Part shown: in pieces, positions 5,454-47,821 of the stretch
Layout of the letters: each line of letters begins with the position of its first letter
Position numbering within the stretch: position 1 is the first letter of the stretch
DNA from: Adineta ricciae
Taxonomy: Eukaryota
Reading direction: 5' to 3'
DNA length: 64,000 nt
Assembly (NCBI GenBank): GCA_905250025.1
Contig: CAJNOJ010000052.1
Coordinates: forward strand, 23,044 to 87,043
Program-made: the position numbers and the translations under genes
The notes under the pieces: generated by a model
The model's database searches: none
Told to the model about the DNA's origin: nothing
The model's input: only the letters and a program-made list of their open reading frames with translations

Positions 5454-7462
5454 ATGCGTTCGATTGTGATCTTAGCTCTGACATTCTTATTAGCATTTGC
5501 CTTCGATGAATTTTCTGTTCCGGAAGGTGAAGATGCGCCTTTGACCGGTCCAAATGTAGTCGTAGATCTCAGCAGCAGTAATTTTACACAATTTATTCAA
5601 CAACATCCCGTCGTTCTTGCTGAATTCTATGCACCATGGTAAGTATCAATGCGAGACAAATGTTGACTCAAGCGAATTTTTTCTTCTCTCTCTTATTCAA
5701 GGTGTGGGCATTGTAAACAATTAGCGCCACATTATGAACAAGCTGCACGTTTAATGAAAGATGCTGCAAATCCAGTTGCTTTTGCCAAAATTGACGCAAC
5801 GATAGAAGAATCATTAGCTCGCGAGTATTCAATTGAAGGATATCCTACCATAAAAATCTTTCATAAGAATAGCGAAAAGCCAGTAGAATATGAAGGTCCT
5901 CGTCAACCTGCATCAGCCATCGCTGATTTTGTCAAAAAGTATGCTGATCCAACTTGGACACCGCCACCTTCGGATGTTGTTGTTCTTACGGTTGATAATT
6001 TCGAGACATTCACTACAGAAGAAGAGTTAACTCTAGTCGAATTTTATGCTCCATGGTGTGGTCATTGTAAACGATTGGAACCAAACTTCGAAAAAGCAGC
6101 AACATCACTGAAAAAGGATACAAAAATTCGTTTAGCCAAAGTTGATAGCACTGTGGAAACAGCATTAGCAGCTGCACATAATATCACTGGGTAAGATCAA
6201 CTTGTGTTTCTTCGATCGGTACTCATCTTTAGTATTCTACAGATATCCGACATTAATTGTGTATCGCAAAGGTGGAAAATATGCACCTTATGATGGTGAG
6301 CAAAGTGAGCAAGGAATTGTTTCGACAATGAAAGAACTTTTGTCATTACCAAGTCGTGAACTACGTAATATGAATGATTACAAAAATCTATTCCGAAAAA
6401 ACGATCAACCTGCTCTGATTGGTGTTTTTCAATCGGATGAAGATGAATTATATAAATTGTTTATTGATTACGCATATCACCATCGAAAAGCATTTCAATT
6501 TGGTCATACATTTGAGAAGATCTCCGCTTTAGATGGTGTCCAAGCACCTGCAATTGTTCTTCAACAGCATTCTGATGTTCGATCGAAATACGAAAAAGAC
6601 AAAATAGTTTTCACCAAAGCTAATGCACTCGAAAGTGAATTCGAAGAATTTGTCACGAAGCACCAAGTGCCATTAGTTGGTGTGCTCACACAAGAAAATC
6701 AACGAACCACTTATTTATCTCGCCGACCAATTTGTGTCGTTATCTATGACGTGGATTTTTCGTTCGATCATCGTGAACGAACACAATATTGGAGAAACAA
6801 AATTCTCAAAGTTGCAAATGATTACAAGGACAAATACACTTTTGCTATTGCTGATGAAGAAAAAATGTCGTCATTATTGAAAGAATTCGGCTTAGAAGAA
6901 TCTGGTGAAGATATCAATGTTGGCTGTTTCGATAAAGATGGTTTGAAATATCGTATGGAAGATGATGATGAATTTACTTCGGAATCATTCGAAGAATTTA
7001 TCAATAAACTAATCAAAGGAAAAGTCAAACCCTATATCAAATCTCAAACATTACCCAAACAACCCATTGTCAATGGAATCCAAACTTTAGTTGGCAAGAA
7101 CTTTGAAAAAGTTGTTCAAGATCAAACGAAAAATGTCCTCGTCTTTTTCTATGCACCATGGTAGGATCAAGTTTTGCCATTCAATCTCACCATCTTTGAT
7201 GAATTTCAGGTGTGGTCATTGCACAAAATTTAAACCCACGTATGCAGCGCTTGCTCAACGTTATGCTAGTCGATCAAATCTCATTGTTGCTCAAATTGAC
7301 GCAACGGCTAATGATATTCCTAAAGGTTTTGAAGTAGCTGGTTTTCCCACGATTTATCTCGTTCCAATGAATAACCAACCCGTGAAATACGAAGGAAATC
7401 GTGATCTAGATGATTTAGTGAAATTCATTGAGAGTCATTCACAATTCAAAAGTGAACTTTAA
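5454..7462 (+). CDS. PDIA4: Protein disulfide isomerase with three thioredoxin CGHC active sites (ERp72/PDIA4-like), 4 exons: 5454-5638, 5702-6190, 6243-7160, 7210-7462.
   Basis: Signal peptide MRSIVILALTFLLAFA. Three APWCGHCK motifs are present; the first and third are each split by an intron inside the Trp codon. b/b'-like middle domains and a C-terminal KSEL ER-retrieval-like tail are present. Introns are 63, 52 and 49 nt. The a0-a-b-b'-a' arrangement is that of ERp72. Confidence 0.85.
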
Positions 7463-8059: not shown

Positions 8060-9774
8060 ATGGCAGCCAAAGCTTTTCAAGTTGCTCTCGATGCAGCAAC
8101 AAACGAAAACAACACTGAAGAGAATTGGGATAGAATTTTAGGTAAGTTATAATCGACTTTAATAATGTTTGGAAAAGCACTTTTCTTTCTTTTCATTGTA
8201 GAGGTATGTGACTACGTTAAAAATGGTCAAGTAAAACCTAATGAATTACTTGATCAAATCGTGAAACGTTTGAAACAAACTCGTAAGGCGAAACTACAAA
8301 TGAACGCTTTAACATTATTCGATGCAGCGGTAAAAAATTGTGGTCAACAATTTCATCAAGCATTTACATCACGTGCAACAATGAATGCACTCGTTGAAGT
8401 TATTGATGATTCACATACGGAAAACATTGTACGTAATCGTATAGGTTCATTATTAAAACAATGGATGAATGATCCAGAATTTAAAGACAAAGCTCAGTAT
8501 GCTATGCTCGGTGCAACATATAAAAAGTTAATAACAGAGAAAAATTACACCTTCATTGATGGACCTAATCATCAATCGATATCCTCAGCAGGCACAACAG
8601 TGGCAGGAGTTGCAGCACGAAAAACTCAAGATGATCTATTGGCAAAACGAGAAGAGGAAGAGTTTGCTAAAGCTAGTAAGTTTATTTTCTGTTTGGAGAA
8701 GTATATTTTCAAATCGTATTCCATTGATGTGTAGTTGCTTTATCGATGCAAGAAGCAAATCAATCAAAACCACAGCAAACAGCTACAAATTCACTTTATC
8801 CATCGATGCAACCATCTTCTTCAACAAATCCGACATCGGCATCGACAATAACAAGTTCAGTTGGTAATGAAAAGAAAGCGAAAGCTTTATATGATTTCGA
8901 AGCGGCAGAAGACAATGAAGTGACATTCAAAGCAGGCGACATTTTGATTATTACGGATGACAGTGACCAACATTGGTGGAAAGGTATCAACAATGGTGTT
9001 GAAGGTCTATTTCCAGCTAATTTCGTTACGAAAAATCTTCAACAACAAGTTGATTCGCCTAGTCAATCAAACGGAACAGCTAATGTAAGCATGTCGAAGA
9101 AATTCATCTACTCGTTCGACTATCGTTTTTGACCGAATTTGTAGGATATCAATCAAAAGCAACAACAACGTCAGAATGAAATTGTTAAAGATCAAGTCGT
9201 GATCGATGAACGTCTTATCGATCGATGCTTAGGAATGTTGCAAAATGCTGATCCAACCGGTGAAATCGAGGCCGATTCGAATGAAATGCTCATGCTGGAA
9301 GACACATGTTATGCAATGGGTCCATTGATCGATCATGAACTAGAAAAAGTCGATCGTAAGCATGTTCAATTAGAAGAATTGAATAAAAACCTACGCGAAG
9401 CTATGGATTTGTATCACCGATTGATGGAAGAAGGTCGTATACGTGCAGCTCAAGCGAAAACAAATGCTGCTCAACTAGCTAATCAAATGTACCAACAGAC
9501 ACAAATTCCAACTCAACAATATTATCCAGGTCATCCAAGTTTACAACAACAACAACAACCACCAATGATGTATCAACCTTCACAAATGTATAATAATCAA
9601 ATACCTCCACAAACTCAACCATCCATGCCTTATATTCCACAACAAGCAACAGGAGCATATTATGTTGATCCCAATTTACAACAAACGCAACCAGTACATA
9701 TGATGTATACGATGCCACCAAACATGATGCCGCCGCAACAGCAACAACCAGCTGCTTATAGCGAAACGCAGTAA
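8060..9774 (+). CDS. STAM: STAM (signal-transducing adaptor molecule; ESCRT-0 subunit), 4 exons. Approximate exons: 8060-8141, 8201-8667, 8735-9084, 9145-9774.
   Basis: N-terminal VHS domain (NWDRILEVCDYVKNGQ...). A UIM (EEEFAKAIALSMQEA) is formed across the exon 2/3 junction. SH3 domain ALYDFEAAEDNEVTFKAGDILIITDDSDQHWWKGINNGVEGLFPANFV. A coiled-coil/GAT-like region is followed by a Q/P-rich tail. Intron donors are GTAAGT, GTAAGT and GTAAGC. Confidence 0.85.
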
Positions 9775-10222: not shown

Positions 10223-12845
10223 TGGATGAATCTCGTCCAACACGACAACGAACAATTCAAGGTATGTTTTTCCAAGTTCAGTTTCATACATCAATCATAT
10301 CGAAGCTAACAAACTACTGTTATTTTGGTCACTATGGGAACTAGACTTCTTTTTGCCATCACCAAATATTAATAATCAATGCTTTTTATTTAGTTGTTTC
10401 GTTGCTAGATAAAATTCACTTGAAGAAAGAGCCCGATCTGCCAACATTACTATCCAATCTCCGTGAAAGTCTTTTAAAAAAATCCGAAGATGATGATCAA
10501 ATTGATTCAAATATTATACAACTTACCGAATCCATCAAAGTTAAACTTGAAGGTCTTGAAAAATTCTACCAGAAAAAAGAGATCTTCGATATCCTGCAAA
10601 CAACATTGGAAAGGTTTATTAATGATATTATTTCAATAACAAAACTACCAAATATTCTCTCCAATGAGAGATTTCTAGATATTATTCACATTATAATTTT
10701 GTCGGCAGAAACGCTCGAATTACGTTCGATAATAGAAAACGATCCGCCTTATGCACGGACTATCTGTTTTCGCTTTTTCAACTTATTGGCATCACCTGTT
10801 ATAACTGATTTTCTCAATGAAAAAATCAGCCTTGTTCTATTTGAACTGATTGCATACGTTTTGCGCACGATTACCAGTTATATTACCATAACGATCGAAG
10901 TTATTGTTTTCAAAAAAAATGAACTACAAAATCAAGTTCCAATTCTACGTTCATTATTGAAATACATTGATTGTCACAAAGCCAATTCTGATTTCACTGA
11001 AAAACGTACGGCAGTTGATTCTTTATTTACTTTTATATGGTCATTAGCCAACGATACGATTTTAGTTCCAACTTTGATTGAAGCGGAATGTCCAAAATAT
11101 GTATTACAATGGATTGCAAACGAAGACATACCATCAGGAATGCAGCAACCATGTATACATATCATACACAACATAGCAAGACATGAGAAAGGTGTGAAAG
11201 TGTTAAACGATGCGAATGGTATAACCATACTTAAAGATTTCAAGAGACGAGTGCTTGATCCGAACAAAAACAATCAAGACGAATTGTATACCGAATTACG
11301 ATTGGTTTACTGTATGGCTGTATCATTATTAACCGAACCAAAAGAAAATCATGAAGATTTGGATAATCTTCGCAAAATTCTTGATCAATTGATGCAGTTA
11401 GCTGTTGATGCTGGACAATCTGTACAGAATAAATATCGAGGCTTTCACGTCAGTGAACCAATTGTTGTTTTAACGAAATTGTGTATTCATGATGAAATTC
11501 TCAATTATGTTTTAAATGAATCAAATGTACAAAGAATGGAAGCACCAACAAAAATTCAATTTTTCTGTCATTTACTAGTTAAATTTCGTGCTGCAGTAGC
11601 TACCGACGATGATTTAGATCAATTAACACTGATAGCTCTGTTTAACATTATATGGAGCATATCATTTCATGATAAATATTTATCTGAATTGAAAAAGAAT
11701 TTTCAGTTTTTACTAACAATCAAAACTCTAGCAGTTGATAATACTGCTGGATCAGTTGACCAATATGTACCGAATCACATGTCATCGATACCCAAAGCAG
11801 CTCAAGGTATCTTATGGAATCTTGACGAAGATAATCCAGGTATGCGGAAAAGAGTAGAATAATAAATAATTGCATTGCTGTTTTCGCTTAGGACGACTCG
11901 TTCGAAACACTACTGCGGAATCGACAGCAACGACGCTAGCGGAACCGGTTACTGATGAAACAAACAAAACACGTGTAATGGTTAGCTATTGCCATACAGA
12001 TCAAGAATTCTGTCGTCAATTAGTTGACGCATTAAAGAAAGGTCAGCTCAATGTATGTTCACGAAATATTGAAATCAAAGCGTGCTTTGATTTTTAATAT
12101 AGATAATCGCTTACATATTTGGGTAGATTTCGCATATTGCCATACAGAAGACTTTTGGGAAGAAATCGGTGAAGCTATCGAAAAAGCAAATGTTGTGCTC
12201 TTTCTAATGTCCAAAGAATATCAAGATAGTAAATCATGTCGACAAGAAGTGATGTATGCGAAAGATTCGTTGAAGAAACGTTTTATTCCCATATATGTGA
12301 AAAAAGATTTTCAAGCATCTGGGTGGTTAGGCGTACGTATTGTTGGTCCACAGTATATTCGCTTTGAGAAACGGCCATTTGCAGATACAATGAAAGAATT
12401 ACTGAAATTGATTTTTGAAGATAAAACAACAACAGTATCTGCGCCAAAAGAAGAAATTAAACCTCTTCCTCCACCTCCAGTCACTGAAACAAAACCGACG
12501 GAAAGTACAGTGAAACCTAGTGAACCTATTCCTACTCTCACAGATTTCAAACCATTGAAAAAACCTGTTGAACAATGGACAAGCAAAGAAATTTCTCAAT
12601 GGTTTAGCGATAACCAAATTCATCGTGAACTAGTTGATATATATGATTTCAAGCATGGTACAGATTTGCTTCTTTATAGTCAATGTCTTCGACCTGATTG
12701 GCAAATTGAATATAATGATATGAAAGAACGCTATCAACAGAAATATCATACTCCACTATATCGTGATCAATTCGTTCGTTTCGTCGGAGCAATGAATCGA
12801 CTGAAACCATCGCAATCAAAATCAAAAACATGTGTCATTTCCTAG
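10223..12845 (+). CDS. SARM1-like protein with domain order helical (ARM/HEAT-like) - TIR - Pro-rich linker - SAM. About 4 exons: 10223-10261, 10394-11839, 11892-about 12054, 12103-12845.
   Basis: The TIR domain spans exons 3-4: VMVSYCHTDQEFCRQLVDALKKGQLN ... IWVDFAYCHTEDFWEEIGEAIEKANVVLFLMSKEYQDSKSCRQEVMYAKDSLKKRFIPIYV. It aligns to the human SARM1 TIR (DVFISY..., [33 protein letters not shown]..., WVHKEI...), including a Glu at the position of the SARM1 catalytic Glu. The C-terminal SAM-like domain is WTSKEISQWFSDNQIHRELVDIYDFKHGTDLLLY... The large N-terminal exon is leucine-rich helical repeat. Phase-compatible introns are 132, 52 and about 48 nt; the exact donor of the last intron is ambiguous (GTATGT versus GTTCAC). 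Confidence 0.65.
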
Positions 12846-26916: not shown

Positions 26917-28103
26917 ATCAAACTTGTTATAATATAATTTGAGGGATATTTTATCATGTTTATTTAACGTTTAGTAAATGACTCACACAAGCAATATCCG
27001 TTTTAAATACCGCCCCTTTTCTATTGATTCATACATATGAACAGTTACTAGCATCATAGTACTATGAGAGTTAGCTGTACCTGGTTTATGACAGTACGTA
27101 AATATCGTATGAAACCAATTTTATATATCACAAAAATGTGTCGTTGTTTCCTCTTATAAAACTATATTGATAGAAAGGATTGTATTTACAATAGAAAATA
27201 TATCGAATGTGTAGCAAGGAAACGATGACTATACCCTATGAACACTAATGATATGTTTTATATACTCGTTTATTCCAAGTCTTTCATGAAGACTTATTTG
27301 CTTTGTATTCTTGTTCTATTCGATGTGATAATATACAATTCAATGTATTTCTCTCATTCAAGTCTCTTCAGTGTGTATCAATTATCTATATTGACATATT
27401 TTGATCTTTCTATTGCATTCAACTTCAATTTTTGCTATAAAAGATTAGAATGGGCCAGCATCTGCTGCATCTGACATTACTATTGTAACAATTGTCTGAT
27501 CTCTGTCTTGATACAATTCCTTGACACAGTTCAATGATCCATAAATATTGATGTTTATCACTTTCAATTGATCTGCTTTTTTTACATTTGCTCTTTCTTC
27601 CCTCTCGCATATAGTTTAGTCTTTTTATAATGCAACTTTCTCATATGTATATTTAGATATTAGACAAATCAAGAAAAATGAGAAGTAGAAAAAGGCAAAC
27701 AAAATAAAAGGAAAAAACACTTCTTTTTCTTCTTCGTTAGTATCTTATATTGAGTTTTTTTCCTCTTGTAAAGTTTGAAAGACTGCCGCACAAAAAAAGA
27801 AGGGCAACAATAGACACATAAGAAAATCAAAAGCGAGTTCTTGAATATGTATACATACACACACACATATATATATATATATATGAAAACAAAGAGAAGT
27901 ATAGAAGAATATGTTCACAGTTCAAGAAGAACAAGAATCAAGCAAGCTAACAATGAAGCAAAACGAACAACAATGATATAATGCAACTCGTGCGTATCTG
28001 GCATCTAAAGGAAAGTAAAGGACACGAAGAAAGAAAAATCTATCTGTTGACAAGAAAACAAAATATGTACGAAAGAGCCGGAACAAAAGAAACAATATGA
28101 GAA

Positions 28104-30152
28104 TTAGCTGGTCTGTTCACCTCGACAGATCGGACATCGAGTTGATGTCTATAAGAAAATGAAAAATGCAATCGTTCAGATATGGTTGAAATGTAAAGAT
28201 CATCAAATCGAATCTTACCTTCAGCCATGGATCAATGCAATCACTGTGAAAGAAGTGTTTACAACGTAGATGCTTCAATTTGTCACCACCGATATATTCA
28301 CTTAAGCATACAGCACATTTATCATCAACTTGAATAGTTGTACAAGATTTAGTATAGATCATTGTTGGTAAACGTTCCAGTTCACTATCGGTAAGGCCAA
28401 CGACGGGTGTCTCATCGGGTATTGTCAGATCGAAAAAGTCCTACATGTATCAGCGTATCGTAGAAAACTAATTATTCGGTTAAAAAGTGAGAAAAACTTA
28501 CACCAAATTGAATACTAAATGCAGCTGGTAATGAAAAAATTTCATGGCCAGGTGACATCCATGCATAAGCAATTAAATCAATTGATGCTGTTGGTGGATG
28601 ATGATGATAATGACTATGATTATCACTGTACGAAGCAGCATGGGCATCGATAACGCGGCTGAAAATTATTTTAGAGAAAAAAGAGAGAGAGAAAGAGATT
28701 TGCTTTTTTTTCATAAGCCATTGTTGTACTTACTGAAGTAGATCGGTAAGAAATGAAGGTGAAGGTCTTTGATGCAAATGAGTAGTCATTGATGTTCGAT
28801 GAAAGAGTGGACCGCGTGGTGATGGTGTTGGCTCGAAAGTTATTCCACTTCGATGATGGTGATGATGATGATGTGAGTGAGGGTGATGATGATTTGATTG
28901 TTGCGTATAAGAAGAACGAGGAGGAGGAATTGGTGGACGACGAGGTAAAGCAACAGGTGGTGATTCAAGTAGAAATTGTCGATGATCAGAAGAATGATAT
29001 ATATTGCGAGGCTGTACAGATGACGATGACGTTGTTGTTGACGATGGTGATGGTTGAATAGGACGATGATGAAGATTGTAATGCGTATTGGTATTATTGA
29101 TTTCATGTGCGTGTTCAATTCGATTTCGTTGTATTGCTTGTGAACGTTGTTCAAATGGCCGAGAAAGAGAAGGAACATTGTCGATATACGATGTTCGGGG
29201 CATCGAAGTTGGTTGTGGTTGTACATGTCGATGGTTTCTATATAATAAAGATAAGAAAACAGATAGTTGAAAGAAAAGAAAAGAAAAGAAAAGAAATGAA
29301 ACATTTACGTATATGGTTGATAATGATGGTGACTAGCTGATCGATACTGTTGATGTTGGACATGTGAAGCATTCTCCTGTGAATGATGATTCGTTTGATC
29401 GTTTTCATTGTTAATTCCTTCATGTCTCGATCGTTTACGTTCGTGATGATGGTATGAATGTGATGACTGAGATGTGGATGTACTGATTGCAGATGAACGT
29501 TGCCTTTTCGAATGATTGTGATTGTTGCTATTGTTATTATAATTATTATTATTATTATTATTATGAGATGATCGTTGAGTTATGCCATTGTTATCTTCTT
29601 GTTCATCATCAAACCATGGGGGACGACGTGTAAAAGACGCTGCCGATGGACTTTCTAAACGATAATGGCGATGGTGTGGAGCTGATGCTGTTGCATTTGC
29701 TGCCGCCTAAAATACATTGATGAATAATTTTTGAGAAAAAAGTTTTCCTTTACCGTTACAGCATTCAATGGGAGTAACGACCGAGTTGGCTCGTCTTCAT
29801 GTGATTGCAAGTAGTTAAAATGACACGATGGTTGAGATTCATTTCTTTGATGAACTTGTTGATTACTAGTTGCTTCACGATTCGATGAATGCAACGAAGA
29901 AGAGTCAAGTGTTTGGCGCTGATGTGGATATTGAAAATAAGTAAAATCATTCGGCGTCGAAACTGAATGAGCTGTAGAAGATGCAGTTGTTGGTTGATGT
30001 GTACACGATAATGTATCCGTTAGTTGCCAAGATGAACTATCTGAGGGTGTATCATTCGTTTGTGCCGTCGGATAAGAAACAAAGTCGCACATTTGAAGCG
30101 ATACACGATGACGAGGAGGTGCAAATGGACGGTTCGAATATTGGCGAGACAT
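28104..30152 (-). CDS. RING-H2 E3 ubiquitin ligase of the RLIM/RNF6/RNF12 type, at least 6 exons with a long low-complexity His/Ser/Asn-rich N-terminal region. The last three exons are approximately 28502-28650 region, 28219-28440 and 28104-28148.
   Basis: C-terminus reads GLTDSELERLPTMIYTKSCTTIQVDDKCAVCLSEYIGGDKLKHLRCKHFFHSDCIDPWLK, then a 70-nt intron, then TSTRCPICRGEQTS*. This matches the human RLIM/RNF6 RING-H2 (GLTKEQIDNL...[44 protein letters not shown]). The RING is split between the last two exons. Upstream exons encode H-rich and PPxY-like low-complexity sequence. Confidence 0.7.
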
Positions 30153-30710
30153 GAAAATCTGTATGCAATTTTAATACAAAAGACAAATAACTCTGTACAA
30201 CCTTCCTGAATACTTCGTTCGATGTAATCAAAGAAGAAGAAAGGCTATAAAAAGGAAGGTGAAATGAAAGAATGCAATGCACGTGGTGTCCATGATGTTG
30301 AATTGAATGACAAAAGCAACCAATCATTTTCGAGCGATCGTATGTCATCACAATGCAAGCCAGTGACCTCTACCGACCTTTCAAATATGCCATTCTTTAG
30401 TCATCAGAATATGTACAACGCAGATCACGTCAAGAATAACTCACTCAACTCTCCACCGAATAGTTAACATAAGTAAAAATGTAAAAGAGTGTTGTTAGGA
30501 GGAACGACCTCTATAGAAACAGCTAAAGTTAGGTTCGAATATACTTTCACACTTCCTTTCATTTCGAGACGGTCGTATTTGAAGATAAGCTGGCAATAGA
30601 GCGATACTCTTTCACATTATGAATAACACTAGAGTGTTACTTTCAAACGTGCGTTTCTGATAGAAATTCTGAAGTCCTTTTTATTTATTGAATGAAAACT
30701 TATTAACACA

Positions 30711-31255
30711 TCATTGTAAAAGTGTGAATCGGGAATGTGGTAAATGTTCTTCTCTTGAGTTGTCAGCTTCTTGGTTTGATGCTTCCGAACAACTTTCATC
30801 TATTTGACATGATTCTAAAATCACAACCAAGGTTGAAGAAACGTCGACAAATACAAACTACATACCTGTTCCGCAACATACACCATGAGCAGCGCATCGA
30901 CCGTTCGGTACGCTGGAGCAAACAGCCGAGTTGATCACACATGGTGTGAGACTATGGCTTTCCTTTGAGCATTGACGAACATCGGATGGATGACCGATGC
31001 GACAACCTAAGCCATTACAGCAGATCGATGGGCCAAAACACTGGCCACCAAATCCACACCGTGGACACTGAAATTGAAAAAAAAAGAATATTTAACAGAA
31101 AAAGAAATGTTGTGTTTATGTCTAACTTGATGCTTGTACGATTCATTATCCAGATCTGAACTTCGTTTACCACCAATTGGACAGTTGGTTATATAACATC
31201 CGTGATTAAATTCAAGAATAGCAACAAAAAGGATCAAGATAGCGAATTGATGCAT
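30711..31255 (-). CDS. Vasopressin/oxytocin-type neuropeptide precursor (nonapeptide plus neurophysin), 3 exons. Plus-strand coordinates: 31127-31255, 30866-31067, 30711-30799.
   Basis: Exon 1 encodes signal peptide MHQFAILILFVAILEFNHG, then CYITNCPIG, then GKR (amidation Gly plus dibasic cleavage site), then SSDLDNESYKHQ. Exon 2 encodes the neurophysin core CPRCGFGGQCFGPSICCNGLGCRIGHPSDVRQCSKESHSLTPCVINSAVCSSVPNGRCAAHGVCCGT, which has the conserved Cys pattern of vertebrate neurophysin (CLPCGPGGKGRCFGPSICC...GRCAAAGICC). Exon 3 encodes DESCSEASNQ... Introns are 59 and 66 nt, the first with a weak GTTAGA donor. Confidence 0.8.
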
Positions 31256-31853
31256 TGCGCGAAAAATACTACAATAGAATAGGAAGTAGTCAATGATATT
31301 GACGAAAATTTAAATATTCGACGCTTACTTTATTGATGTAGATTGAAATAAAAGTGGAGACACAATATTTTCTTCAATAATGTGCAATTAAATTGAACAC
31401 CAAAGGTACTTTGCGCACTATTTATAAAACATCGTAAAGCAGTGGGCGACAACGTAGGTGTTAAAATTAAATCAATCGAGAAAGTATCGACGTCTAATAT
31501 TATTAACACACTGTATGCGTCAATTGTAATATAATAACTGTTGGCACATTTTCGCAGAGAAATCTTAATCAAAAACACTCTTTGTAGGTGTTATCGCATT
31601 GTCTTGCATATGTTCGCGTTTTTAAAAGTGTTTTATTTGAAAAAACTTGCGTTTTTCTATGGTAACAAGCAAACATTGAGTACTTGGGCAAAGTTTTCAA
31701 ATCATGGATATTTATTTGCAAATAAATTCTTTGGCATACACTCAAAATCATTTGAAACTATTTCATTCCATACACAAACACACAATAAATTAAAAACAAC
31801 ATTCATATCTTCATTACTATAGAAAAAACGCCATCACCGGAGACGAAGCATAG

Positions 31854-34558
31854 CTAATAATCATTACTGCCCTCATGGTCTTGATCTTCTCTTGTTGTAG
31901 GTGCTGTTGTATCATCACCAAGTAACTGACACAGTTCATTCAAGCGTTGTTGGATTTTTGGAATGCCAGCTAGTTGTGTTTCAAGACGCTCTTTTTCGCC
32001 TTGCAATGTCAAAAGTTTCTCAGTGTTAAGTATTTCAAACGTCCACCGACCATCGCCATTAAATTGTAATAAATGTGTATGATATGCCCTGGTAAAGTCA
32101 AAGAAAAAATAGTGATTACCACGATAATTTAGCAAAGTTAACTTACCAGAGTGATGGTCGATGAGTAATTGTCAATAATGAAATGCCTAGTTCTTTCGCT
32201 CTCTCATATATTTTACCCTCAACATCAATGGATACAGCGCTTGTACATTCGTCAAGCAGAGCATAGCGTGGTCGATGATAAAATATTCGTGCTAGACCAA
32301 GCCGTTGCTTTTCTCCGCCAGATAGAATGTCTTTCCAATCGCGTTCAGCGCTCAAACCACCTTCACGTTGAACGATATATTTTAATTCGACATTGTCAAG
32401 AATTTCCATTAGTTTTGTATCGTCAACAAAGGCATTGGCCACTGTATGTGGATAAATAATCTGATCACGTAATGTCCCTGGACACATGTAAGGTCGTTGA
32501 GGAATAAGAAAGAAACTGGATGGATCTGGTCGATGGAGACGACCCGAGTAGACAGGCCATAAACCTCGAACAATACGAAAAAATGATGATTTGCCACAAC
32601 CATTTGGTCCAGTTATAAGGACATGCATAGCTGGTGTGATCTGAACAAGAGAATCATCGAATGCTAAGATTAAACTATTCAGTTATCTTTACTTTTAGTG
32701 AGAGACTTTCAACAATAACATCACCGTTAGGCGTGATAATGGGTACATCTTCAGCAATGATATCTTCGTCAGATTCAATTATTTTGCCTTCTATTATAAT
32801 GTGAAAAAGCAAACTTTGTCAGTACGCTTTCCTGCAGTAATGATATTTACGAACCTGCACGTTGATTAATTGCAACTTTTTTCTTTGCAACCACAGATGA
32901 CGAATGTTCATCATGATTTTCATCTGTTGTTACTAGATTCCGTTGATAATGTGCATTCGCGCAATCATCAAAAACATGAAGCATGGTATAAACTCGATCT
33001 GTATGTCCCGCAAGTTCTGCGATCTAAAATAAAATTGTATCTTTCCTGTCTGAACCATATTTGATTCTAACAGAGCAATCTTACTTCTTTGTACGAGGAA
33101 ATAATTCGTTCAAGTGCGTCAGCACCGGATGTCAGTAAGTTTTTACTAACAGTAAATGCTTCTGTACGCGCGCTAATACCAAGTGGATCTCCAACAGGAT
33201 CTACAAACAAATTTTTGTTTACAAGTTACAAAGCATCCAAAAAATCCGATATACCATCAGTTTCTGGTGGCCCATCATAGGTAAGAAAAGGAATAGCAAT
33301 AAACATCATTCCACCTACAAACGAAAACAACTTCAAATAAGGAAAGATATTTTCCGTGAAAGCACCTACTTGCATGCCAAAAATATTTCATCAAGAATTG
33401 TTCGAGCATGATAAACCACAGTTTTTTCTTAATAATCAAATTGGTTTGTTCACGTAATTGATCATATAATTTCAAAACCCAATTTTTCTCGACCTAGACA
33501 CAGCATTATTATACTTGCAATTGTTCCAGAAGAAAGTCAAAGAAAAGCATACTTGATGACCATCGAAGAAGGCGATTTCTTCAGCATTAGCAATAACTCT
33601 TGTATGAGCGAAACGAAGTATACCTCGTCGGCGTGCTTCTTCCGAAACAAGTCTACCGAACCGAGGTGATAATTTCCGAAGAGCCGTAAATGTGATGAGA
33701 AAAACGATCATTGTCATGACAGGAACCTCTAAACGATATGAAAAACACCATTTGAAGAGTCTGATCGTGTCAATCTATCGAAATACCTTTAAGACCACGT
33801 GCTGTTGCTCGTTGTCGAACCATAGCGATAAGCGACCATGAAATGACGGCGATATCAAAAAACGGTTTTGTTAAATGTGAAAATAGATGTGTCAATGTTG
33901 ACGTGAATGTTTCAATATCATCAGTTAGATTTTGATCTGGTGTTAACAATCGACTGTCCAAATTTGTAACGCGATAATAAGTTTGATTCTAAAATAGAGT
34001 CAACGTTAAGAATAACAACAAGAAGAAGACAAATTGAAAATTTACTTTGAAATAAGCTTCATATGCATGTTGTGTTAGTCTCGTACGCAATGCTAACGAA
34101 AGTTTTGATTCTATAAAACGAATTGAGCTGTTGATAAAACTAGCGGGAACGGCAACGCCAATAAAAGTGCATATGGTTCGAAAAAACTGACGAGGATTTC
34201 GTTGTACTAAAGATTTAACAATAGCACCATCGAGATGTGCTATGTAAATGGAAAGGAATGTTCGGGTGATTAATGTGGTTAAATGAAGTATCAGCAAAGC
34301 AAATGAATCACTTTTTACATTTGGAATAAGAATACGAATTAAAGCTCGAAGTTGATGATAAAATTGTTTGTTGAGTGCGTTACGAATGGGTGATGATGGT
34401 GATGAAGCATCAGTAGTGCGTGATTCTTTTGAAATAACGAGTGCACGACGTTTCTTCAATAAAGCTGATCGACGATAGCGACGAATAAGATAGGCAATTA
34501 CAGCAAAAGATGAAGAAAACAGAAGAATTTTCGCTCGACGAGATCTCAACGAATACAT
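31854..34558 (-). CDS. ABCD1: Peroxisomal ABC half-transporter, subfamily D (ABCD1/ALDP-like), multi-exon.
   Basis: N-terminal TM domain matches PMP70/ALDP (…[42 protein letters not shown]...[17 protein letters not shown]). EAA-like loop [15 protein letters not shown] with Walker A ([11 protein letters not shown]), [21 protein letters not shown] signature [15 protein letters not shown], and Walker B/D-loop [16 protein letters not shown]-terminal coiled coil [34 protein letters not shown] parallels human ABCD1 [34 protein letters not shown]. Last exon is 31854-32088; the preceding exon ends at 32147. Introns are about 50-60 nt. Confidence 0.85.
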
Positions 34559-34909
34559 GCTGTGAACTAAACGATATAATTCATGAAGATAACTACGTTC
34601 GCGAACTTTATGATAAGGCGAACAGAAAGTACTTCGTCCGTTGAATGGCGTTATTTATCTTTGGTTGTCAACCAGCTGTTTAGATATCTTTTAATGGATG
34701 TAAAGTAACCAACAGTGAGTACTCATTAGATGTCATTCTATACAATGAGTAAAAGAAAGAGAAAAAGAAAGAAACAGTCTTTAGGAGAAGCTTTATTTAC
34801 AAAGTAAAAAATACAAACGACACTAATGTTGATAGTAAAAGAAACGTTGAAAACTAAACGTCAATAAAAGCAAAAAGGCTTCAGATAGAAATGTTCTATT
34901 GTGTGATAT

Positions 34910-37805: not shown

Positions 37806-38065
37806 CTCAGGTCAACAAATCCGATGCTGGATCCGACCATCCGACGAAATCCGATCGGATTCCTGGAAACGGAATTGCATTGGAATCCGACTAGAAAAAT
37901 CCCGTCGGCTGTTGCAAATTTTATGAGCGATCTTTTTAGCTATGTTCTATGATGACCCTTAGAAAATCCAGGAAATCCATGTTTCGGGTCCGAGACCGTC
38001 GAATTCCTGTAGGATCTAATAAAATCCTATATTGGATCCAAGTATGGGATTGTTCGATCTGAGTA
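37806..38065. repeat. Dispersed repeat, copy A (about 260 bp), related to the copy at 38945-39115. Probable non-autonomous TE or MITE-like element.
   Basis: Direct sequence similarity between the two copies, roughly 85-90% identity over shared blocks. One shared block is ggattcctggaaacggaattgcattggaatccgactagaaaaatcccgtcggctgttgcaaattttatgagcgatctttttagctatgttct. The element contains internal short repeats (aatccgat, ggatccga). It lies in the long intergenic region between beta-tubulin and the next gene. Confidence 0.6.
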
Positions 38066-38944: not shown

Positions 38945-39115
38945 CAGGTTAACAAATCCGATCGGATCCCTGGAAACGGAATTGCATTGGAATCCGACTA
39001 GAAAAAACTCGTCGGTTGTTGCAAATTTTATGAGCGATCTTTTTAGCTATGTTCTGTGATGACCCTCAGGAAATCCATGTTTCGGATCCGAGTATGGGAT
39101 TGTTCGACCTGGGTT
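38945..39115. repeat. Dispersed repeat, copy B (about 170 bp; internally deleted relative to copy A).
   Basis: Same orientation as copy A. Shared blocks include caggttaacaaatccgat..ggatccctggaaacggaattgcattggaatccgactagaaaaa.ctcgtcgg.tgttgcaaattttatgagcgatctttttagctatgttct.tgatgaccct.aggaaatccatgtttcgg.tccgagtatgggattgttcga. It lacks about 80 nt that are present in copy A. Confidence 0.6.
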
Positions 39116-42532: not shown

Positions 42533-45500
42533 ATGTCTCAACGTGCTCGTGTTGCTGCTGCTCGTGCGGCTAAAACTGCTGCTGCATCTTCTTCGTCATT
42601 TTCTCAATCAAATAATAGGTCGAAATCAAAGAAAAAACCTGTTCCAATTCGCAAAGTCACTCGTAGTAATGCGAATAGTGGTGCTATCAAAAAGAAAACA
42701 CCAGTCAAGACTAATCAAAAGTCTTCACCCACTAAACGTCGTCTTCAAAAGCGTTCATCGACAAGTACACGTTCATCGACGCGACTAACTACTGTCACAA
42801 CACCGACACCGACGCCACGGAAAAAACGTCTTTCGGGTTTGACAGCTGCAACTCTTCTTCAGTATTGTACCAATGTCCTTTCGCCACCTCCAGCAAATGA
42901 AAAACAACAAACGAATAAACGACAGTTACGATCAACAAACAGTAGCCCAGTATCACGAAATAATCCAAGTGCAGCAAATCGGAAAAAGACAAAGGTTGGA
43001 TATAACGAATTTGTGAAGTTTTCGTAACAATAATTTTTTATGCAATGTAAATTTTAGATTAACCCCAAAGTAACACAAAAACAAAAAACAACGAATACGC
43101 GCACAGCGCGTACGCGAAAAGCTACAGTAGTAAAAGCATCAACAACATCGTCGAGCGAAAGTGACAGTGAAAATAGTGAAGAAAATGACAAACAAGAAGA
43201 AGCAGATGATGATGATGATGATGATAATCAAAACGATGATGACAAAGCCGATGAGGATAAAGAAGAAGATGAGGATGAAGATGAAGACGAAGATGATGAA
43301 AAACCTTTGAAGAAAAGAGTGAAAGATAAAAAACAATCAAGTGAAGAAGAAAATAGTGTTGATGAAAAGATTCGGCCTTCACGTCGTCGTAGCACGAAAA
43401 CAAAAACAAAAGCAACAGCAAATGGACGTAAGCGTCAAGTTTCCAATGTTTCATCAACAAATGACGTTAAACCTGCTCAAATTGAACTAAACATTCACAC
43501 TCGTTCACGTCGTGAAGCTAGTTCGCGTGCATCAGCTATGATTATGCAACAAAACGAAATTGAACGTAGCCGTTTTAACTTCAGTCTAGCGAATGATCGT
43601 TCAACATCAGTTAGTCGAAGACGCCGTACTAAAAGTACAGTCACAAACAAAGATGACTCCCATACTGATATCATTCCTGATCCGTCTGAACAACCATCGG
43701 TAGAACCATTTAAATTCAATGTTCCATCTGTTCCGCCAGCGCCTACAGTCGTACCCGCAACAACAACGACGACAGCAAATGCAACGAATCATAAAGTTAC
43801 ACCACCTCCATCAATATCTAGTGTGACTGCACCTGCACCATCGGTAACAAACGTATCGAATAAAACTGAATATGCTCAATCGTCAAATGCAGTGACAACA
43901 AAATCTACATATCAAGCGCCATCGACAACTGCTACGACAGTTTCATCAAATTCAAAGTATCCATCACTGACAGAAACAGTTTTAGCTGAGCATGATCGTA
44001 TGCATGGCACAACACCGCCGTACCATACAACTAAACGTGATAATCTAATAAAATGGACGCAAGAATTAGCGTTATATGATCGTCTATCACCGCCGTTTCC
44101 TGAACATGAAATTCCTCTCGAATCATTTCATGGTGCTTCTTCGTCGATATCGTCAACGACTACAACAATAAATGATCAGGTACAATCCAGCCGTGGTATT
44201 ATAATTAGTCAAAATAATAGCAATAGCAATCAAAGTACAAGTGCTGCAACGAACAATGGCGGTTCAATCATCGGTGGTGCTGGTTCATCATCAGCAACTG
44301 TTGCTGGTACGAGTACAGCTACGACAGGTGGAACAACAAGTAACAATACACATAGTAAATCAACTGGCAAAGCGATTCCGCAAGTATCGTCGGGATCTTC
44401 ATTAAAACAGCCAACTAATACTAATACAAATTTTATACAAAAATCTCGTACACCAGCAAAAGGATCAAATGCAGTACCAGGTATGATTTTAACGGTTAGA
44501 ATCCATGAAAGATTTACTTATTATTTAGCTCCGCCTATGGTCGCGCCAGATCTTTCATTATCATCGACTCCTCTGCTTAACTCTTTTGGAGCTCTGACTC
44601 CTACTGTTCTTGGCACACAAACAGCAAACACATCTTCCTCATCATCATTATCATCACGGCCACTTTCATCTTCACTAGATCATCATCTTCATCACCCACA
44701 CTCATCAACAGTTTCGACGCCAATTCCGGCAACAAATGTTAATTCAACCACGAATCCAACCTTTCTAACGCCGTCTGCTGCGGCTGCTGCTGCCGCTGCC
44801 GCTGCCGCAGCAGCAGCTGCATTCCCCATTGATCTACGTCCATTTTATCCACTTCTACCTTGTTGGCAATATCCTGGTAAGATGCATCAATGAATAATTT
44901 GCATGTCTTTGCTTCTGTTAACCTGTTTGATGTGTGTATATATATATATGCTTTCACTTTTCAAATGATGTATTATTCTTTCACTTTTTATGCTTCAGCT
45001 GAACAACTATAAGAAAACAACCAGTTCACTTTTATCAATAGTCATTTGTTTTAGTTAAATTTTTAAAATGAGAAGCGTCAGAAAAAAAACCTATAGAAAA
45101 GCTTTTCCAGATTAAGTCATATACAATTAGTTTCTCTTTCCGGTGCTATATAATTCGATTATTACAGATAAAATAAAAGTTGTCTTATTGACTTGCAGCG
45201 CCCATCGGTATGTAGATCTCCAGGCAATTCGCATACATATTCTTTCATTCATATAAATTCTCTATGCTTTTCTTATTCTATTTTCTATATCAACGAAAAA
45301 CGGCTCTCATTCTAATTTCCTCAATAGACTATTTACTACTGCATACACTGTTCTAAAAAAACCTATTCAGTGATTGATGTCTTGCTTCTCCTCTATTTGA
45401 TGATTTATAACATTGAATTTCTTTTTCTCTAGCTTGGACATTTCCGTCATCAGCATCACTGCTTGGTCAACAAGCGAATTGTCTCATACAACCCTCATCA

Positions 45501-47821
45501 ACACTTCCTCCACCACCGCCCCCTGTTGTTCATCATAAAACATCTATCACACGTCATCGTACAACAACACATTTAGAAACTAAACAAAAGAAATCGTCCA
45601 CATTAACAACATCTACAACCAATTCGAATAATTTGAATAATAATGCTAAACAACAGTCACTTATCCCAATTTTTGATCCTCAACCAAAACCATCGCTATC
45701 ACCAAAAAAGGAAGCATTAACTTTTCATCTGCATACTCATCATCATCATCACATTCATAATCCGAATCCTCCCATATCGTCAAATACATCTTCGTTACTC
45801 AAATCACCGAATCCAACGAAAACAACAACAGTACCACTATCACCACAGAAGTCATGTGTTCTTGTGAATAAAGAGCAGCTTGTTGAAACCAAGACTATCC
45901 TTCCATTGAGTGTAAATAATGTTGTTAAGAAAGAACATCAATTGATAACTACAAATGATTTCTTGTCATCAGCGGCAACAACAGAAAATGAAGCTTTAAA
46001 TTTTTCAATCAAACATTTATCGGCAAATAAGAAAACCAATGGAAATGAATCCGACGGAACTACACATAGGAAAACATCGAGAAAAAGTTCACCAGTCAAA
46101 GGACATGCTAGTTCCGGGTCCAAATCGAATGGGTAAATTAACCAAATCAAACTTTGTTCTATTCGAAAATCTCTATTTATCCTCTCTCTATTTTAAGTTC
46201 GCCTACTCACTCTATTGGTGATCACGCTCCGTATACAATTAGTTCAATCATCACTTCACCGACAAAAACCTCCGCTATCAACCTTAGCACTAGTCCATTA
46301 AATCAACGGCAACGTCTATCGTATCCTACTGGAGTAACTACAACCATTATCTCACCCGTGTCAAATATTCTCAGCGCAAATGGTGAATTAGCTGCTCTCA
46401 GTGATGATGAACGTCAGTCTGCAAAATGTAATCACAAACGGCGTAGTGTATCAGCGACTGCTAGTGCAACAACACTTATATCAATAATAGGAAAAAACGC
46501 TCGTTCAGCGCGGACAGCATCGTCTTCTACCTTGCCTGTTCGATCGAAATCCTCAACATATATACCCAATTCAAAACGATCGCATTCACCATCTTCTGTG
46601 ACATTACTTGGATCAAATAAAAACCCGAGTCAGAGAAAGAAACAAAAATTCTCTCATTATTGGGCTCTATTCGGCAAATCAGAGCAGAAATTAGTGTCAA
46701 TTGATGTAAGCAACTCGGTAGAAAGCATTGTTTCCAGGCGATATGTATAAGAAATTGTTTTAGGCTGACAAACCGCCGGTCTATCGCGAATGTTTCTCAT
46801 CAATTCGACACGTCAAAGAAAAGGATATCATTAAATCCGATGATTGTGTCTTATTACGTCCTGAGAATGCTGAACATTATGGCATAACGCCATACTTAGC
46901 AAAAGTCAAATGGTTTTGGAAAGAACCAGAATCAGGTTCGACAAAAACTAGATTACAATCTCGTATGATCATATAAATCTAATGTAAATTGTAGGTGAAA
47001 TTCAAATGTCACTTGTTTGGTATTATCATCCTGAACATAGTGAACTGCCAGCACGTGTTAAGGAACACTTTTTAAGTAATGAAGTGTTAGCATCAAAGTA
47101 CTGGGACTGTGTGAATGTAGCTTGTATTGAAGATAAATGCTATGTGCTCAACCTTAATGAATACAATCGGTAAGAAAGCTTCTTCTTCTTCTTTATTAAA
47201 TCCACACATTCTGGAAAAAAAATGAAAGGGAGAAAAGAGTTCACGTTATTTTACTTGAAAACATAGAAATGTATGTGTAATAGTTCCGATTTGAGATTCT
47301 CTTTGGAGCAGTACATCGGATATGAACTTCCGGTTGGCAATTGGAATGATTATAATTAATATCGCTAAACTCAATTGTGTGCAGATAATTGAAGTAGTAG
47401 AGCGTTCGAATCAGTTTACAATTAATTAATATTTCAAATTTCTTGGTTCGATATTCATTTCCATTTGATCTCTTTTTCTAGTTATTGTATTCGTGAAAAG
47501 ACATCGGACCTCTTCGAACATCCTGATTCAGTGGGTGATTTGAAATCTCTGTTAAACAGAAATACTTCCACTGTTCAGCATCGACCACTACCGTCGAAAA
47601 ATGTTGACAATCAAAATATCTTCTTCTGTCGCTATGTATATGACCATCGAGCGAAACGTATTTTGAAAAATCCAAGTTTGAATAATCCTAATATGAATTC
47701 AACAACAGCAACAACGACGACGACAACAACAACAACAACAACAACTGCAATAATGACCACGATGACGACAACAGTTGATCCCACTACGACAATTTCTGTA
47801 CGTACGGCAGCACGCATGTGA
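42533..47821 (+). CDS. Large low-complexity nuclear protein with a C-terminal BAH domain (TNRC18/BAHCC1/BAHD1-like). Approximate exons: 42533-43012, 43058-44876 (possibly with an internal 48-nt intron at about 44478-44525), possible 9-nt micro-exon 45197-45205, 45433-46132, 46198-46705, 46764-46935, 46995-47169, 47482-47821.
   Basis: The BAH domain is encoded by the last four exons: DDCVLLRPENAEHYGITPYLAKVKWFWKEPESG / EIQMSLVWYYHPEHSELPARVKEHFLSNEVLASKYWDCVNVACIEDKCYVLNLNEYNR / YCIREKTSDLFEHPD...NIFFCRYVYDHRAKRI. Upstream exons encode basic KR-rich, acidic D/E tract, Ser/Thr/Ala-rich low-complexity sequence including an (Ala)16 tract and a T13 tract. Linking exon 1 to the rest is by phase-compatible splicing only. 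Confidence 0.6.

What the first reader, a model, noticed from the sequence alone, without database searches (positions are those of the whole stretch)
30711..31255. Vasopressin/oxytocin-type neuropeptide precursor encoding the nonapeptide CYITNCPIG-amide with a canonical neurophysin
A signal peptide is followed immediately by CYITNCPIG, then GKR (amidation donor plus dibasic site), then a neurophysin domain with the full conserved cysteine framework, split over three exons on the minus strand. The predicted peptide resembles insect inotocin (CLITNCPRG) and cephalotocin (CYFRNCPIG) but does not correspond to a nonapeptide I can place. This family is a key marker for neuroendocrine evolution, so the gene is worth confirming.
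Basis: partly seen in the sequence, partly recalled or inferred. Interest (0 to 1): 0.7.

Follow-up and report, generated by a model that had tools for sequence, protein, structure and literature searches.

The report
Rotifer oxytocin/vasopressin-type hormone gene
This is a real, intact oxytocin/vasopressin-type hormone gene of the bdelloid rotifer Adineta ricciae, but the same protein is already in GenBank and was named as such in a 2024 preprint, so it is a correct call and not a discovery.

Summary
On the minus strand at 30711-31255 a three-exon gene encodes a 144-aa precursor: signal peptide, CYITNCPIG, GKR, then a complete 14-cysteine neurophysin. Pfam PF00184 matches at E=2.3e-15 over 79/79 positions. 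The predicted fold superposes on bovine neurophysin (TM 0.85, rmsd 1.4 A).

One correction: exon 3 starts at 30814 (ttttag|AATCATG), not 30799.

The supposedly weak donor CAA|GTTAGA is invariant in three Adineta species. It is used in every annotated model examined. Both introns sit at bovine neurophysin residues 9|10 and 76/77.

The window is Adineta ricciae: it is 99.99% identical to GCA_905250095.1. The product is identical to GenBank CAF0940750.1 ("unnamed protein product"). It is also identical to "Adineta_ricciae_Vasopressin/Oxytocin_2" in the supplement of bioRxiv 10.1101/2024.07.20.604414, which reports VP/OT in rotifers for the first time. That preprint overturns the earlier statement that rotifers had lost the system.

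The gene is syntenic across Adineta and under purifying selection (dN/dS about 0.15).

Verdict: interpretation supported, already known, low residual interest. Expression, the amidated peptide and the receptor remain untested.

The parts
31309..31316 (-). TATA-like element TATTTAAA, 61 nt upstream of the ATG (possible core promoter; inferred only)
   Evidence: Pattern found. A comparable 'tataaatat' lies about 45 nt upstream of the ATG in the relative's contig L003. Not tested functionally.
31127..31255 (-). Exon 1 (129 nt, aa 1-43): signal peptide, nonapeptide, GKR and a 12-residue spacer ending ...SYKHQ; donor CAA|GTTAGA, phase 0
   Evidence: The donor is invariant in A. vaga and A. steineri. 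The annotated A. vaga model has its intron at the same CDS position, 129.
31199..31255 (-). Predicted signal peptide MHQFAILILFVAILEFNHG (aa 1-19)
   Evidence: Hydrophobic core FAILILFVAIL with mean Kyte-Doolittle 3.48. Modelled as a helix, residues 2-23. The cleavage site before Cys20 is inferred from the family rule that Cys1 must be the free N-terminus. No signal-peptide predictor was available.
31172..31198 (-). Nonapeptide CYITNCPIG (aa 20-28)
   Evidence: C20, I22, N24, C25, P26 and G28 are invariant in 17 aligned precursors from rotifers to mammals. Identical in A. vaga, with 0 non-synonymous changes.
31163..31171 (-). GKR: glycine amide donor plus dibasic cleavage site (aa 29-31)
   Evidence: Invariant in all 17 aligned sequences. 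Its function is inferred from the established processing of this family.
31068..31126 (-). Intron 1 (59 nt, GTTAGA...TTCAG), at the position of bovine neurophysin II residues 9|10
30866..31067 (-). Exon 2 (202 nt): central neurophysin, CPRCGFGGQCFGPSICC...GVCCGT, 12 of the 14 cysteines and Glu79 (= bovine Glu47)
   Evidence: Exon 2 is also 202 nt in A. vaga.
30815..30865 (-). Intron 2 (51 nt, GTATGT...TTTTAG), phase 1, at the position of bovine neurophysin II residues 76/77
30711..30814 (-). Exon 3 (corrected start 30814): ESCQIDESCSE (the last two neurophysin cysteines) plus an acidic C-terminal tail, stop TGA at 30713-30711
Evidence: 14 Cys, Pfam 79/79. The product is then identical to CAF0940750.1 and Aric13180.
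30684..30689 (-). AATAAA polyadenylation signal, 22 nt after the stop codon
   Evidence: AATAAA-like signals lie at the equivalent place in A. steineri and in L003. Use of the signal is inferred.

Best explanation
This is the Adineta ricciae vasopressin/oxytocin-type neuropeptide precursor gene, paralogue 'VP/OT_2'. Shown here: three exons encode a 144-aa preprohormone. It consists of an N-terminal hydrophobic signal sequence, the nonapeptide CYITNCPIG, a GKR processing site, a neurophysin domain with all 14 cysteines and the hormone-binding Glu47 equivalent, and a short acidic tail. The gene is syntenic and under purifying selection across Adineta. Inferred from the established biology of the family: the signal peptide is removed in the ER. 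The nonapeptide forms a Cys1-Cys6 disulfide and docks through its free amino group and Tyr2 into the neurophysin pocket, which helps packaging into dense-core vesicles. A prohormone convertase cuts after KR, carboxypeptidase removes K and R, and peptidylglycine amidating monooxygenase converts Gly29 into the C-terminal amide. The product would be CYITNCPIG-NH2, calculated monoisotopic mass 979.43 Da. It is an 'oxytocin-like' peptide because position 8 is neutral (Ile). It presumably acts on a rhodopsin-type VP/OT receptor; that receptor was not examined here.
For: Domain: PF00184 E=2.3e-15, 79/79 positions; bovine neurophysin II E=2.9e-12. Fold: the AlphaFold2 model has block-mean pLDDT 71-84 over most of the neurophysin domain, and its top Foldseek PDB hits are all bovine neurophysins, best 1jk6_A with E=2.4e-7, TM 0.85, rmsd 1.4 A over 80 columns. 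Framework: the 14 cysteines align with bovine Cys10, 13, 21, 27, 28, 34, 44, 54, 61, 67, 73, 74, 79 and 85, and Glu79 aligns with Glu47. All of these, plus GKR and the C-x4-C-P-x-G core, are invariant in 17 sequences. Gene structure: the introns lie at neurophysin 9|10 and 76/77. Both donors and both acceptors are conserved in A. vaga and A. steineri, and the annotated A. vaga introns are at identical CDS positions. Selection: dN 0.117, dS 0.803 against A. vaga, with nonapeptide+GKR 12/12 identical. Synteny: tubulin / ABCD / VP-OT / RING / VWA / QVR / RRM-Surp-CID lie in the same order as on A. vaga CP075497.1. Identity: the product equals GenBank CAF0940750.1 of A. ricciae and Aric13180 'Vasopressin/Oxytocin_2' in the supplement of bioRxiv 10.1101/2024.07.20.604414. 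The window is 99.99% identical to A. ricciae contig CAJNOR010000533.1. A relative's contig (L003) carries the same precursor as one uninterrupted ORF reading ...SQCPRCG... and ...CCSPESCHVDESC... across both junction sites.
Against: There is no direct transcript, peptide or receptor evidence for this gene from the tools available. The Pfam model for the nonapeptide itself (PF00220, 9 positions) scores 16.7 bits, just under its 17.1 cut-off. Residue -3 of the inferred signal cleavage site is Asn, which is not the commonest choice. The model has low confidence outside the neurophysin core (pLDDT below 50 for residues 21-40 and 125-144). Two of three A. ricciae gene models fuse these exons to the upstream ABCD gene, so the transcription unit is not settled by annotation alone. 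A 2017 survey, as cited in PMC7181382, reported the signalling system as lost in rotifers. If that applies to the receptor, the target is unknown.
Confidence: 0.92

Rival explanations
1. The exons are not an independent gene but the 3' end of the upstream ABC transporter (ABCD2) gene, as two A. ricciae gene models have it.
For: GenBank CAF0967954.1 (887 aa, this haplotype) and CAF1312375.1 (861 aa, the other copy) join ABCD2 to the VP/OT sequence. The Logan contig L003 carries ABCD and the precursor 157 nt apart on one contig, both without introns, as a read-through transcript might look.
Against: ABCD has its own stop codon (GSNDY*, 31856-31854), about 600 nt upstream of the ATG. The separate models CAF0940732.1 (728 aa) plus CAF0940750.1 (144 aa) exist for the same DNA. 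A. vaga and A. steineri annotate two genes. In L003 ABCD also ends in a stop before the precursor's ATG. The precursor has its own ATG, followed at once by a signal sequence, which could not work if buried behind 730 residues. TATA-like elements precede the ATG.
Confidence: 0.04
2. A decaying or silent copy (pseudogene) left over from the bdelloid genome duplication, while the other paralogue (A. ricciae VP/OT_1) does the work.
For: Bdelloids carry duplicated copies. A. ricciae, A. vaga, A. steineri and R. socialis each have at least two precursor sequences. No expression data were available here.
Against: The ORF is intact, with all 16 cysteines, GKR and all four splice sites conserved. dN/dS is about 0.15 against the A. 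vaga orthologue, with no amino-acid change in the peptide or its processing site. The second A. ricciae copy embedded in CAF1312375.1 is also intact.
Confidence: 0.03
3. A chance cysteine-rich ORF assembly, or a non-hormonal cysteine-rich secreted protein that merely resembles neurophysin.
For: Short cysteine-rich domains can give spurious similarity. PF00220 falls just below its cut-off.
Against: The neurophysin match is 30 bits above its cut-off, full length, and confirmed by fold. The nonapeptide, GKR and intron positions all match the family. Orthologues occur in every bdelloid genome that turned up.
Confidence: 0.01

Closest known systems
[quoted passage not shown]
   Same: Identical 144-aa sequence. 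The underlying contig is 99.99% identical to the window.
   Different: Nothing: it is the same gene. GenBank calls it only 'unnamed protein product'. The preprint gives the protein sequence and a peptide alignment. In the parts I read it gives no gene structure, synteny or selection analysis.
Other rotifer VP/OT-type precursors: A. vaga I4U23_030361 (78% identical), A. steineri, Rotaria spp. (CYITNCPIG or CFITNCPIG), Brachionus plicatilis (CYITNCPWG)
   Same: Same architecture and the same or nearly the same nonapeptide. Within Adineta, also the same intron positions and the same neighbours.
   Different: 57-78% identity for the full-length bdelloid orthologues listed. The C-terminal tails vary in length. 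The monogonont Brachionus has Trp at position 8.
Vertebrate isotocin/mesotocin/oxytocin-neurophysin precursors
   Same: The nonapeptide differs by one residue from isotocin and mesotocin. GKR is present, and the 14-Cys neurophysin is 39-45% identical to bovine neurophysins in the structural alignments, with the same fold. The introns sit at neurophysin 9|10 and 76/77, which by my knowledge of the mammalian genes are the exon A/B and B/C boundaries.
   Different: Thr at position 4. A longer spacer between GKR and the first cysteine than in the aligned vertebrate precursors (12 against 9 residues). A two-residue insertion before Cys101 and short deletions relative to bovine neurophysin II. No copeptin-like glycopeptide, only a 25-residue acidic tail.
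Arthropod inotocin / arachnotocin / myriatocin precursors (CLITNCPRG, CFITNCPIG, CYITNCPPG)
   Same: The x-I-T-N core is shared. The peptide is one residue from arachnotocin and from myriatocin (names from PMC3883647 and PMC5153645).
   Different: A different phylum. Position 8 is Ile, not the Arg of inotocin, so the peptide is oxytocin-like, not vasopressin-like, by the usual position-8 rule.

Membership tests
Vasopressin/oxytocin-neurophysin precursor family | Neurophysin domain (Pfam PF00184) above the curated threshold | tested here: met
   57.6 bits against a cut-off of 27.2, E=2.3e-15, profile positions 1-79 of 79.
Vasopressin/oxytocin-neurophysin precursor family | Fourteen conserved neurophysin cysteines in the canonical spacing | tested here: met
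   They align one-to-one with bovine NPII Cys10, 13, 21, 27, 28, 34, 44, 54, 61, 67, 73, 74, 79 and 85 and are invariant in 17 sequences. This holds only with the corrected acceptor at 30814.
Vasopressin/oxytocin-neurophysin precursor family | Nonapeptide C-x-x-x-N-C-P-x-G directly after the signal peptide | tested here: met
   CYITNCPIG occupies aa 20-28, after a 19-residue hydrophobic leader. The 9-position Pfam model PF00220 scores 16.7 against a 17.1 cut-off, so it is marginally below threshold by score although every conserved position is present.
Vasopressin/oxytocin-neurophysin precursor family | Gly-Lys-Arg amidation and cleavage motif after the nonapeptide | tested here: met
   GKR at aa 29-31, invariant in all aligned sequences.
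Vasopressin/oxytocin-neurophysin precursor family | Neurophysin fold | tested here: met
   The ten best Foldseek PDB hits are all bovine neurophysins. The best is TM 0.85 (normalised to target), rmsd 1.4 A, 80 columns. Block-mean pLDDT is 71-84 over most of that domain, with a dip to about 59 around residues 81-90.
Vasopressin/oxytocin-neurophysin precursor family | Hormone-binding glutamate (bovine Glu47) that pairs with the peptide's free amino group | tested here: met
   Glu79 aligns with Glu47 and is invariant. The role of Glu47 is from my knowledge of the bovine complexes (e.g. 1NPO).
Vasopressin/oxytocin-neurophysin precursor family | Three-exon gene with introns at neurophysin residues 9/10 and 76/77 | tested here: met
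   The window's introns map to exactly these positions, and the same positions hold in the annotated A. vaga gene. That these are the mammalian exon boundaries is recalled knowledge and was not re-derived here.
Vasopressin/oxytocin-neurophysin precursor family | Expressed, processed to an amidated, disulfide-bridged nonapeptide | not testable with these tools
   No transcriptome or peptidome access. The predicted mass is 979.43 Da.
Vasopressin/oxytocin-type signalling system (ligand plus receptor) | Cognate rhodopsin-type VP/OT receptor in the same genome | not tested
   No receptor lies next to the gene, and no tool could search the A. ricciae proteome for one. The literature held says only that a 2017 survey scored the system as lost in rotifers (PMC7181382). 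The 2024 preprint reports the ligand only.

The most novel reading that the evidence does not exclude
The ligand is conserved in duplicate, under purifying selection, in bdelloids. These animals reproduce without males and survive complete desiccation. An earlier survey scored the signalling system as lost in rotifers. The evidence here does not exclude that bdelloids keep the peptide but lack a canonical VP/OT receptor, so the peptide would act through a different receptor. It also does not exclude that the system has been redeployed for water balance on entry into or exit from anhydrobiosis. Neither idea was tested here.
Probability: 0.08. Interest if true: 0.6.

Novelty: already known. Interest (0 to 1): 0.22.

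Why it matters
VP/OT-type signalling is a marker system for the evolution of neuroendocrine control. Reviews up to 2020 listed Rotifera as a phylum that had lost it (PMC7181382). This gene shows that is wrong. However, a 2024 preprint already lists this exact protein and makes the point. This check adds three things. It corrects one splice acceptor. It shows that the intron positions, the synteny and purifying selection are conserved. It flags that two of the three A. ricciae gene models wrongly fuse the hormone precursor to the neighbouring ABC transporter, and that public databases still label the protein 'unnamed' or 'hypothetical'. These are points of annotation hygiene, not discoveries.

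Tried and rejected
2. I looked for a second copy in the window by tblastn. There is none.
3. I tried to identify the species from the longest ORF (43307-44893). This was uninformative: the best named hits were about 45% identical and probably paralogues. The identification came instead from the exact-sequence look-up and from contig identity.
It worked through the listing of cluster members followed by P0051.
5. The first homology search missed the identical A. ricciae protein. Its 90% cluster is represented by the ABCD protein because of the fused models.
6. Full-text searches for 'CYITNCPIG' and for Rotaria+conopressin found nothing. The sequence appears only in a supplement.
7. Lockard et al. 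2017, the source of the 'lost in rotifers' statement, is not held. De Oliveira 2019 surveyed three Rotaria species without mentioning VP/OT.
8. Scans for tRNAs and tandem repeats in the window found none.
9. A receptor search was considered and dropped. The protein search appears to list only about 25 best hits, so a receptor query from another phylum would not surface rotifer sequences.

Full report
**What is there**

An ATG at 31255 opens MHQFAILILFVAILEFNHG-CYITNCPIG-GKR-SSDLDNESYKHQ. A GT follows at 31126. Beyond an ...ttcag acceptor, the reading frame CPRCGFGGQCFGPSICC... runs from 31067 to 30866. A third coding segment ends at TGA, 30713-30711.

Using the acceptor 15 nt further upstream (ttttag|AATCATG, exon 3 starting at 30814) gives 144 aa with 14 cysteines. 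Both acceptors are in frame, so the choice needs outside evidence:

- Pfam neurophysin (PF00184) matches the 144-aa form over all 79 profile positions (E=2.3e-15, 57.6 bits against a cut-off of 27.2). It matches the 139-aa form only over positions 1-76.
- Bovine neurophysin II aligns ...CCNDESCVTEPEC... with ...CCGTESCQIDESC....
- In a three-species DNA alignment the TTTAG|AATCATG acceptor is invariant.
- Every full-length annotated orthologue reads through this site in the long form, with a second Cys five residues after the first, e.g. CCGTESC.

The corrected gene is therefore:

| Feature | Window coordinates | Note |
|---|---|---|
| Exon 1 | 31255-31127 | |
| Intron 1 | 31126-31068 | 59 nt |
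| Exon 2 | 31067-30866 | |
| Intron 2 | 30865-30815 | 51 nt |
| Exon 3 | 30814-30711 | |

An AATAAA lies 22 nt after the stop codon, and a TATTTAAA lies 61 nt before the ATG.

**Is it a real neurophysin precursor?**

Yes.

- The 14 cysteines align one-to-one with bovine neurophysin II Cys10, 13, 21, 27, 28, 34, 44, 54, 61, 67, 73, 74, 79 and 85.
- Glu79 aligns with Glu47. From my knowledge of the bovine complexes, Glu47 binds the hormone's free amino group.
- In an alignment of 17 precursors from rotifers, fishes, a lungfish and a bat, all 16 cysteines, Asn5, Pro7, Gly9, GKR and this glutamate are invariant.
- An AlphaFold2 model built on that alignment has block-mean pLDDT 71-84 over most of the neurophysin domain, with a dip to about 59 around residues 81-90. 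Confidence is low elsewhere; the overall mean is 65.
- The ten best Foldseek hits in the PDB are all bovine neurophysins. The best is 1jk6_A: E=2.4e-7, TM 0.85, rmsd 1.4 A over 80 columns.
- The 9-position Pfam model for the hormone itself scores 16.7 bits against a 17.1 cut-off. I attribute this near miss to the shortness of the model; every conserved position of the motif is present.
- The leader has a strongly hydrophobic core. Its cleavage before Cys20 is inferred, because no signal-peptide predictor was available.

**Splice sites and gene structure**

So are the second donor and both acceptors. The interiors of the introns differ by substitutions and indels. The annotated A. vaga gene has its introns at the same CDS positions, 129 and 331.

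Mapped onto bovine neurophysin II, the two introns fall between residues 9|10 and within codon 77. From my knowledge of the mammalian genes, these are the exon A/B and B/C boundaries. That argues for vertical descent and against horizontal acquisition.

A Logan contig from a relative (L003, run SRR5248432) carries the precursor as one uninterrupted ORF. It reads ...SQCPRCG... and ...CCSPESCHVDESC... across both junction sites, downstream of an equally uninterrupted ABCD gene. Whether it is a transcript assembly or an intron-poor genome, it supports the joined reading frame. It is not direct evidence for this gene.

**Whose gene is it?**

- The closest proteins are all from bdelloid rotifers: A. 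vaga 78%, A. steineri 70%, Rotaria species 57-63%. Nearly all are labelled 'hypothetical' or 'unnamed'.
- All carry CYITNCPIG, or occasionally CFITNCPIG.
- The window is collinear with A. vaga chromosome CP075497.1 over more than 20 kb. The order is tubulin, ABCD transporter, VP/OT, RING protein, VWA protein, QVR protein and an RRM/Surp/CID protein.
- An exact-sequence look-up finds the 144-aa product as GenBank CAF0940750.1, 'unnamed protein product [Adineta ricciae]'.
- The contig that carries it (GCA_905250095.1, CAJNOR010000533.1) is 99.99% identical to window 20711-41255, with 2 mismatches in 20,545 bases.

The window is therefore Adineta ricciae.

**Selection**

Against the A. vaga orthologue, dN=0.117 and dS=0.803, a ratio of about 0.15. 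There is no amino-acid change in the nonapeptide or GKR. In the neurophysin domain 64 of 78 residues are identical. The second A. ricciae copy, embedded in CAF1312375.1, is also intact. This is a gene under constraint, not a relic.

**Mechanism**

Shown: the architecture described above.

Inferred from the well-established biology of the family:
- co-translational signal cleavage;
- formation of the Cys1-Cys6 disulfide;
- binding of the N-terminal Cys-Tyr into the neurophysin pocket for sorting into secretory granules;
- convertase cleavage at KR, carboxypeptidase trimming, and amidation using Gly29.

The product would be CYITNCPIG-NH2, calculated at 979.43 Da. A neutral Ile at position 8 makes it oxytocin-like by the usual rule. 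The target should be a VP/OT-type GPCR. I could not test for one.

**Comparison with what is known**

The peptide is one substitution from each of the following (names and from my own knowledge):

| Peptide | Sequence |
|---|---|
| Teleost isotocin | CYISNCPIG |
| Mesotocin | CYIQNCPIG |
| Myriatocin | CYITNCPPG |
| Arachnotocin | CFITNCPIG |

It is two substitutions from inotocin and from cephalotocin.

The 2020 review of invertebrate VP/OT signalling states, citing Lockard et al. 2017, that the system 'has been lost in rotifers' (PMC7181382). A 2021 paper notes that a survey of three Rotaria species found few neuropeptide precursors. That survey does not mention VP/OT.

[quoted passage not shown] It also lists a second A. 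ricciae paralogue, two from Rotaria socialis, and a Brachionus plicatilis precursor with CYITNCPWG. It is the only paper in the held library that reports this gene family in Adineta; the other two papers that mention both Adineta and vasopressin do not.

**Rivals**

- Fusion with ABCD. Two A. ricciae gene models fuse the precursor to the upstream ABCD2 gene. I reject this reading. ABCD has its own stop codon about 600 nt upstream. Separate models exist for the same DNA and in two sister species. A signal peptide buried behind 730 residues could not function.
- Pseudogene. This is contradicted by the selection and conservation data.
- Chance resemblance. This is excluded by the domain and fold evidence.

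**Verdict**

The gene and its peptide are already in the public record, so the novelty class is 'already known' and residual interest is low. What remains open is direct evidence of expression and processing, whether a cognate receptor exists in rotifers, and what the hormone does in these animals.

Noticed in passing
window 31127-34650 (minus strand); GenBank CAF0967954.1 and CAF1312375.1: Two of the three A. ricciae gene models that contain this precursor fuse it to the upstream ABCD2 transporter (887 and 861 aa). They use extra introns that skip the ABCD stop codon at 31856-31854. Because of this, the 90% protein cluster holding the precursor is represented by the ABCD protein, and that hid the identical hit in the first homology search.
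   Followed up: partly
window 43307-44893 (+): The longest ORF in the window (528 aa, no Pfam hit) has about 45% identical relatives annotated as BAH-domain proteins. One is A. vaga I4U23_012815, whose locus-tag number is three away from the second A. vaga VP/OT paralogue, I4U23_012818. This suggests the two VP/OT paralogues lie in duplicated (ohnologous) blocks left by the bdelloid genome duplication.
   Followed up: no
L003 (Logan SRR5248432 contig, 2631 bp) 1-2593: A relative's contig carries an intronless ABCD gene followed 157 nt later by an intronless VP/OT precursor with CFITNCPIG, and a 'tataaatat' lies between them. It is either a read-through or merged transcript assembly, or an intron-poor rotifer genome. 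Either way the ABCD-VP/OT adjacency is conserved beyond Adineta.
   Followed up: partly
window 37847-37970 and 38954-39077 (also 38021-38064 / 39071-39114): A 124-nt direct repeat (94% identical), with a second 44-nt repeat pair nearby, spaced about 1.1 kb apart in the gap between the tubulin gene and the next gene upstream. It could be a local duplication or the ends of a small mobile element.
   Followed up: no
window 12051-12845 (+); also 6202-7164, 8165-8734, 57028-57636, 59993-60592: Other ORFs with Pfam hits: a TIR domain (E=1.5e-12), a protein-disulfide-isomerase-like thioredoxin repeat, a VHS domain, CTLH and DUF3605. This is ordinary eukaryotic gene content and none of it relates to the hormone gene.
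   Followed up: no
window 28001-30000 and 44001-46000: Two 2-kb bins have strong GC skew (+0.30 and -0.27). They coincide with the RING-finger gene on the minus strand and the long ORF on the plus strand. This probably reflects biased composition of their coding strands.
   Followed up: no
P0024 (Pteronotus mesoamericanus oxytocin-neurophysin 1), alignment A2: This bat precursor shows CYITNCPVG in place of oxytocin's CYIQNCPLG. It is a mammalian variant with the same Thr4 as the rotifer peptide. I did not check whether it is a genuine variant or an annotation or assembly quirk.
   Followed up: no
P0021, P0059, P0005 (Logan/ENA contigs of about 1 kb): Environmental and sequencing-run contigs carry close relatives of this gene. 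Prokaryote-style gene callers read them straight through the introns (e.g. ...SYKHQVWYQRNVFF...). This shows that Adineta-like rotifer DNA is present in metagenome collections and is mis-called there.
   Followed up: no
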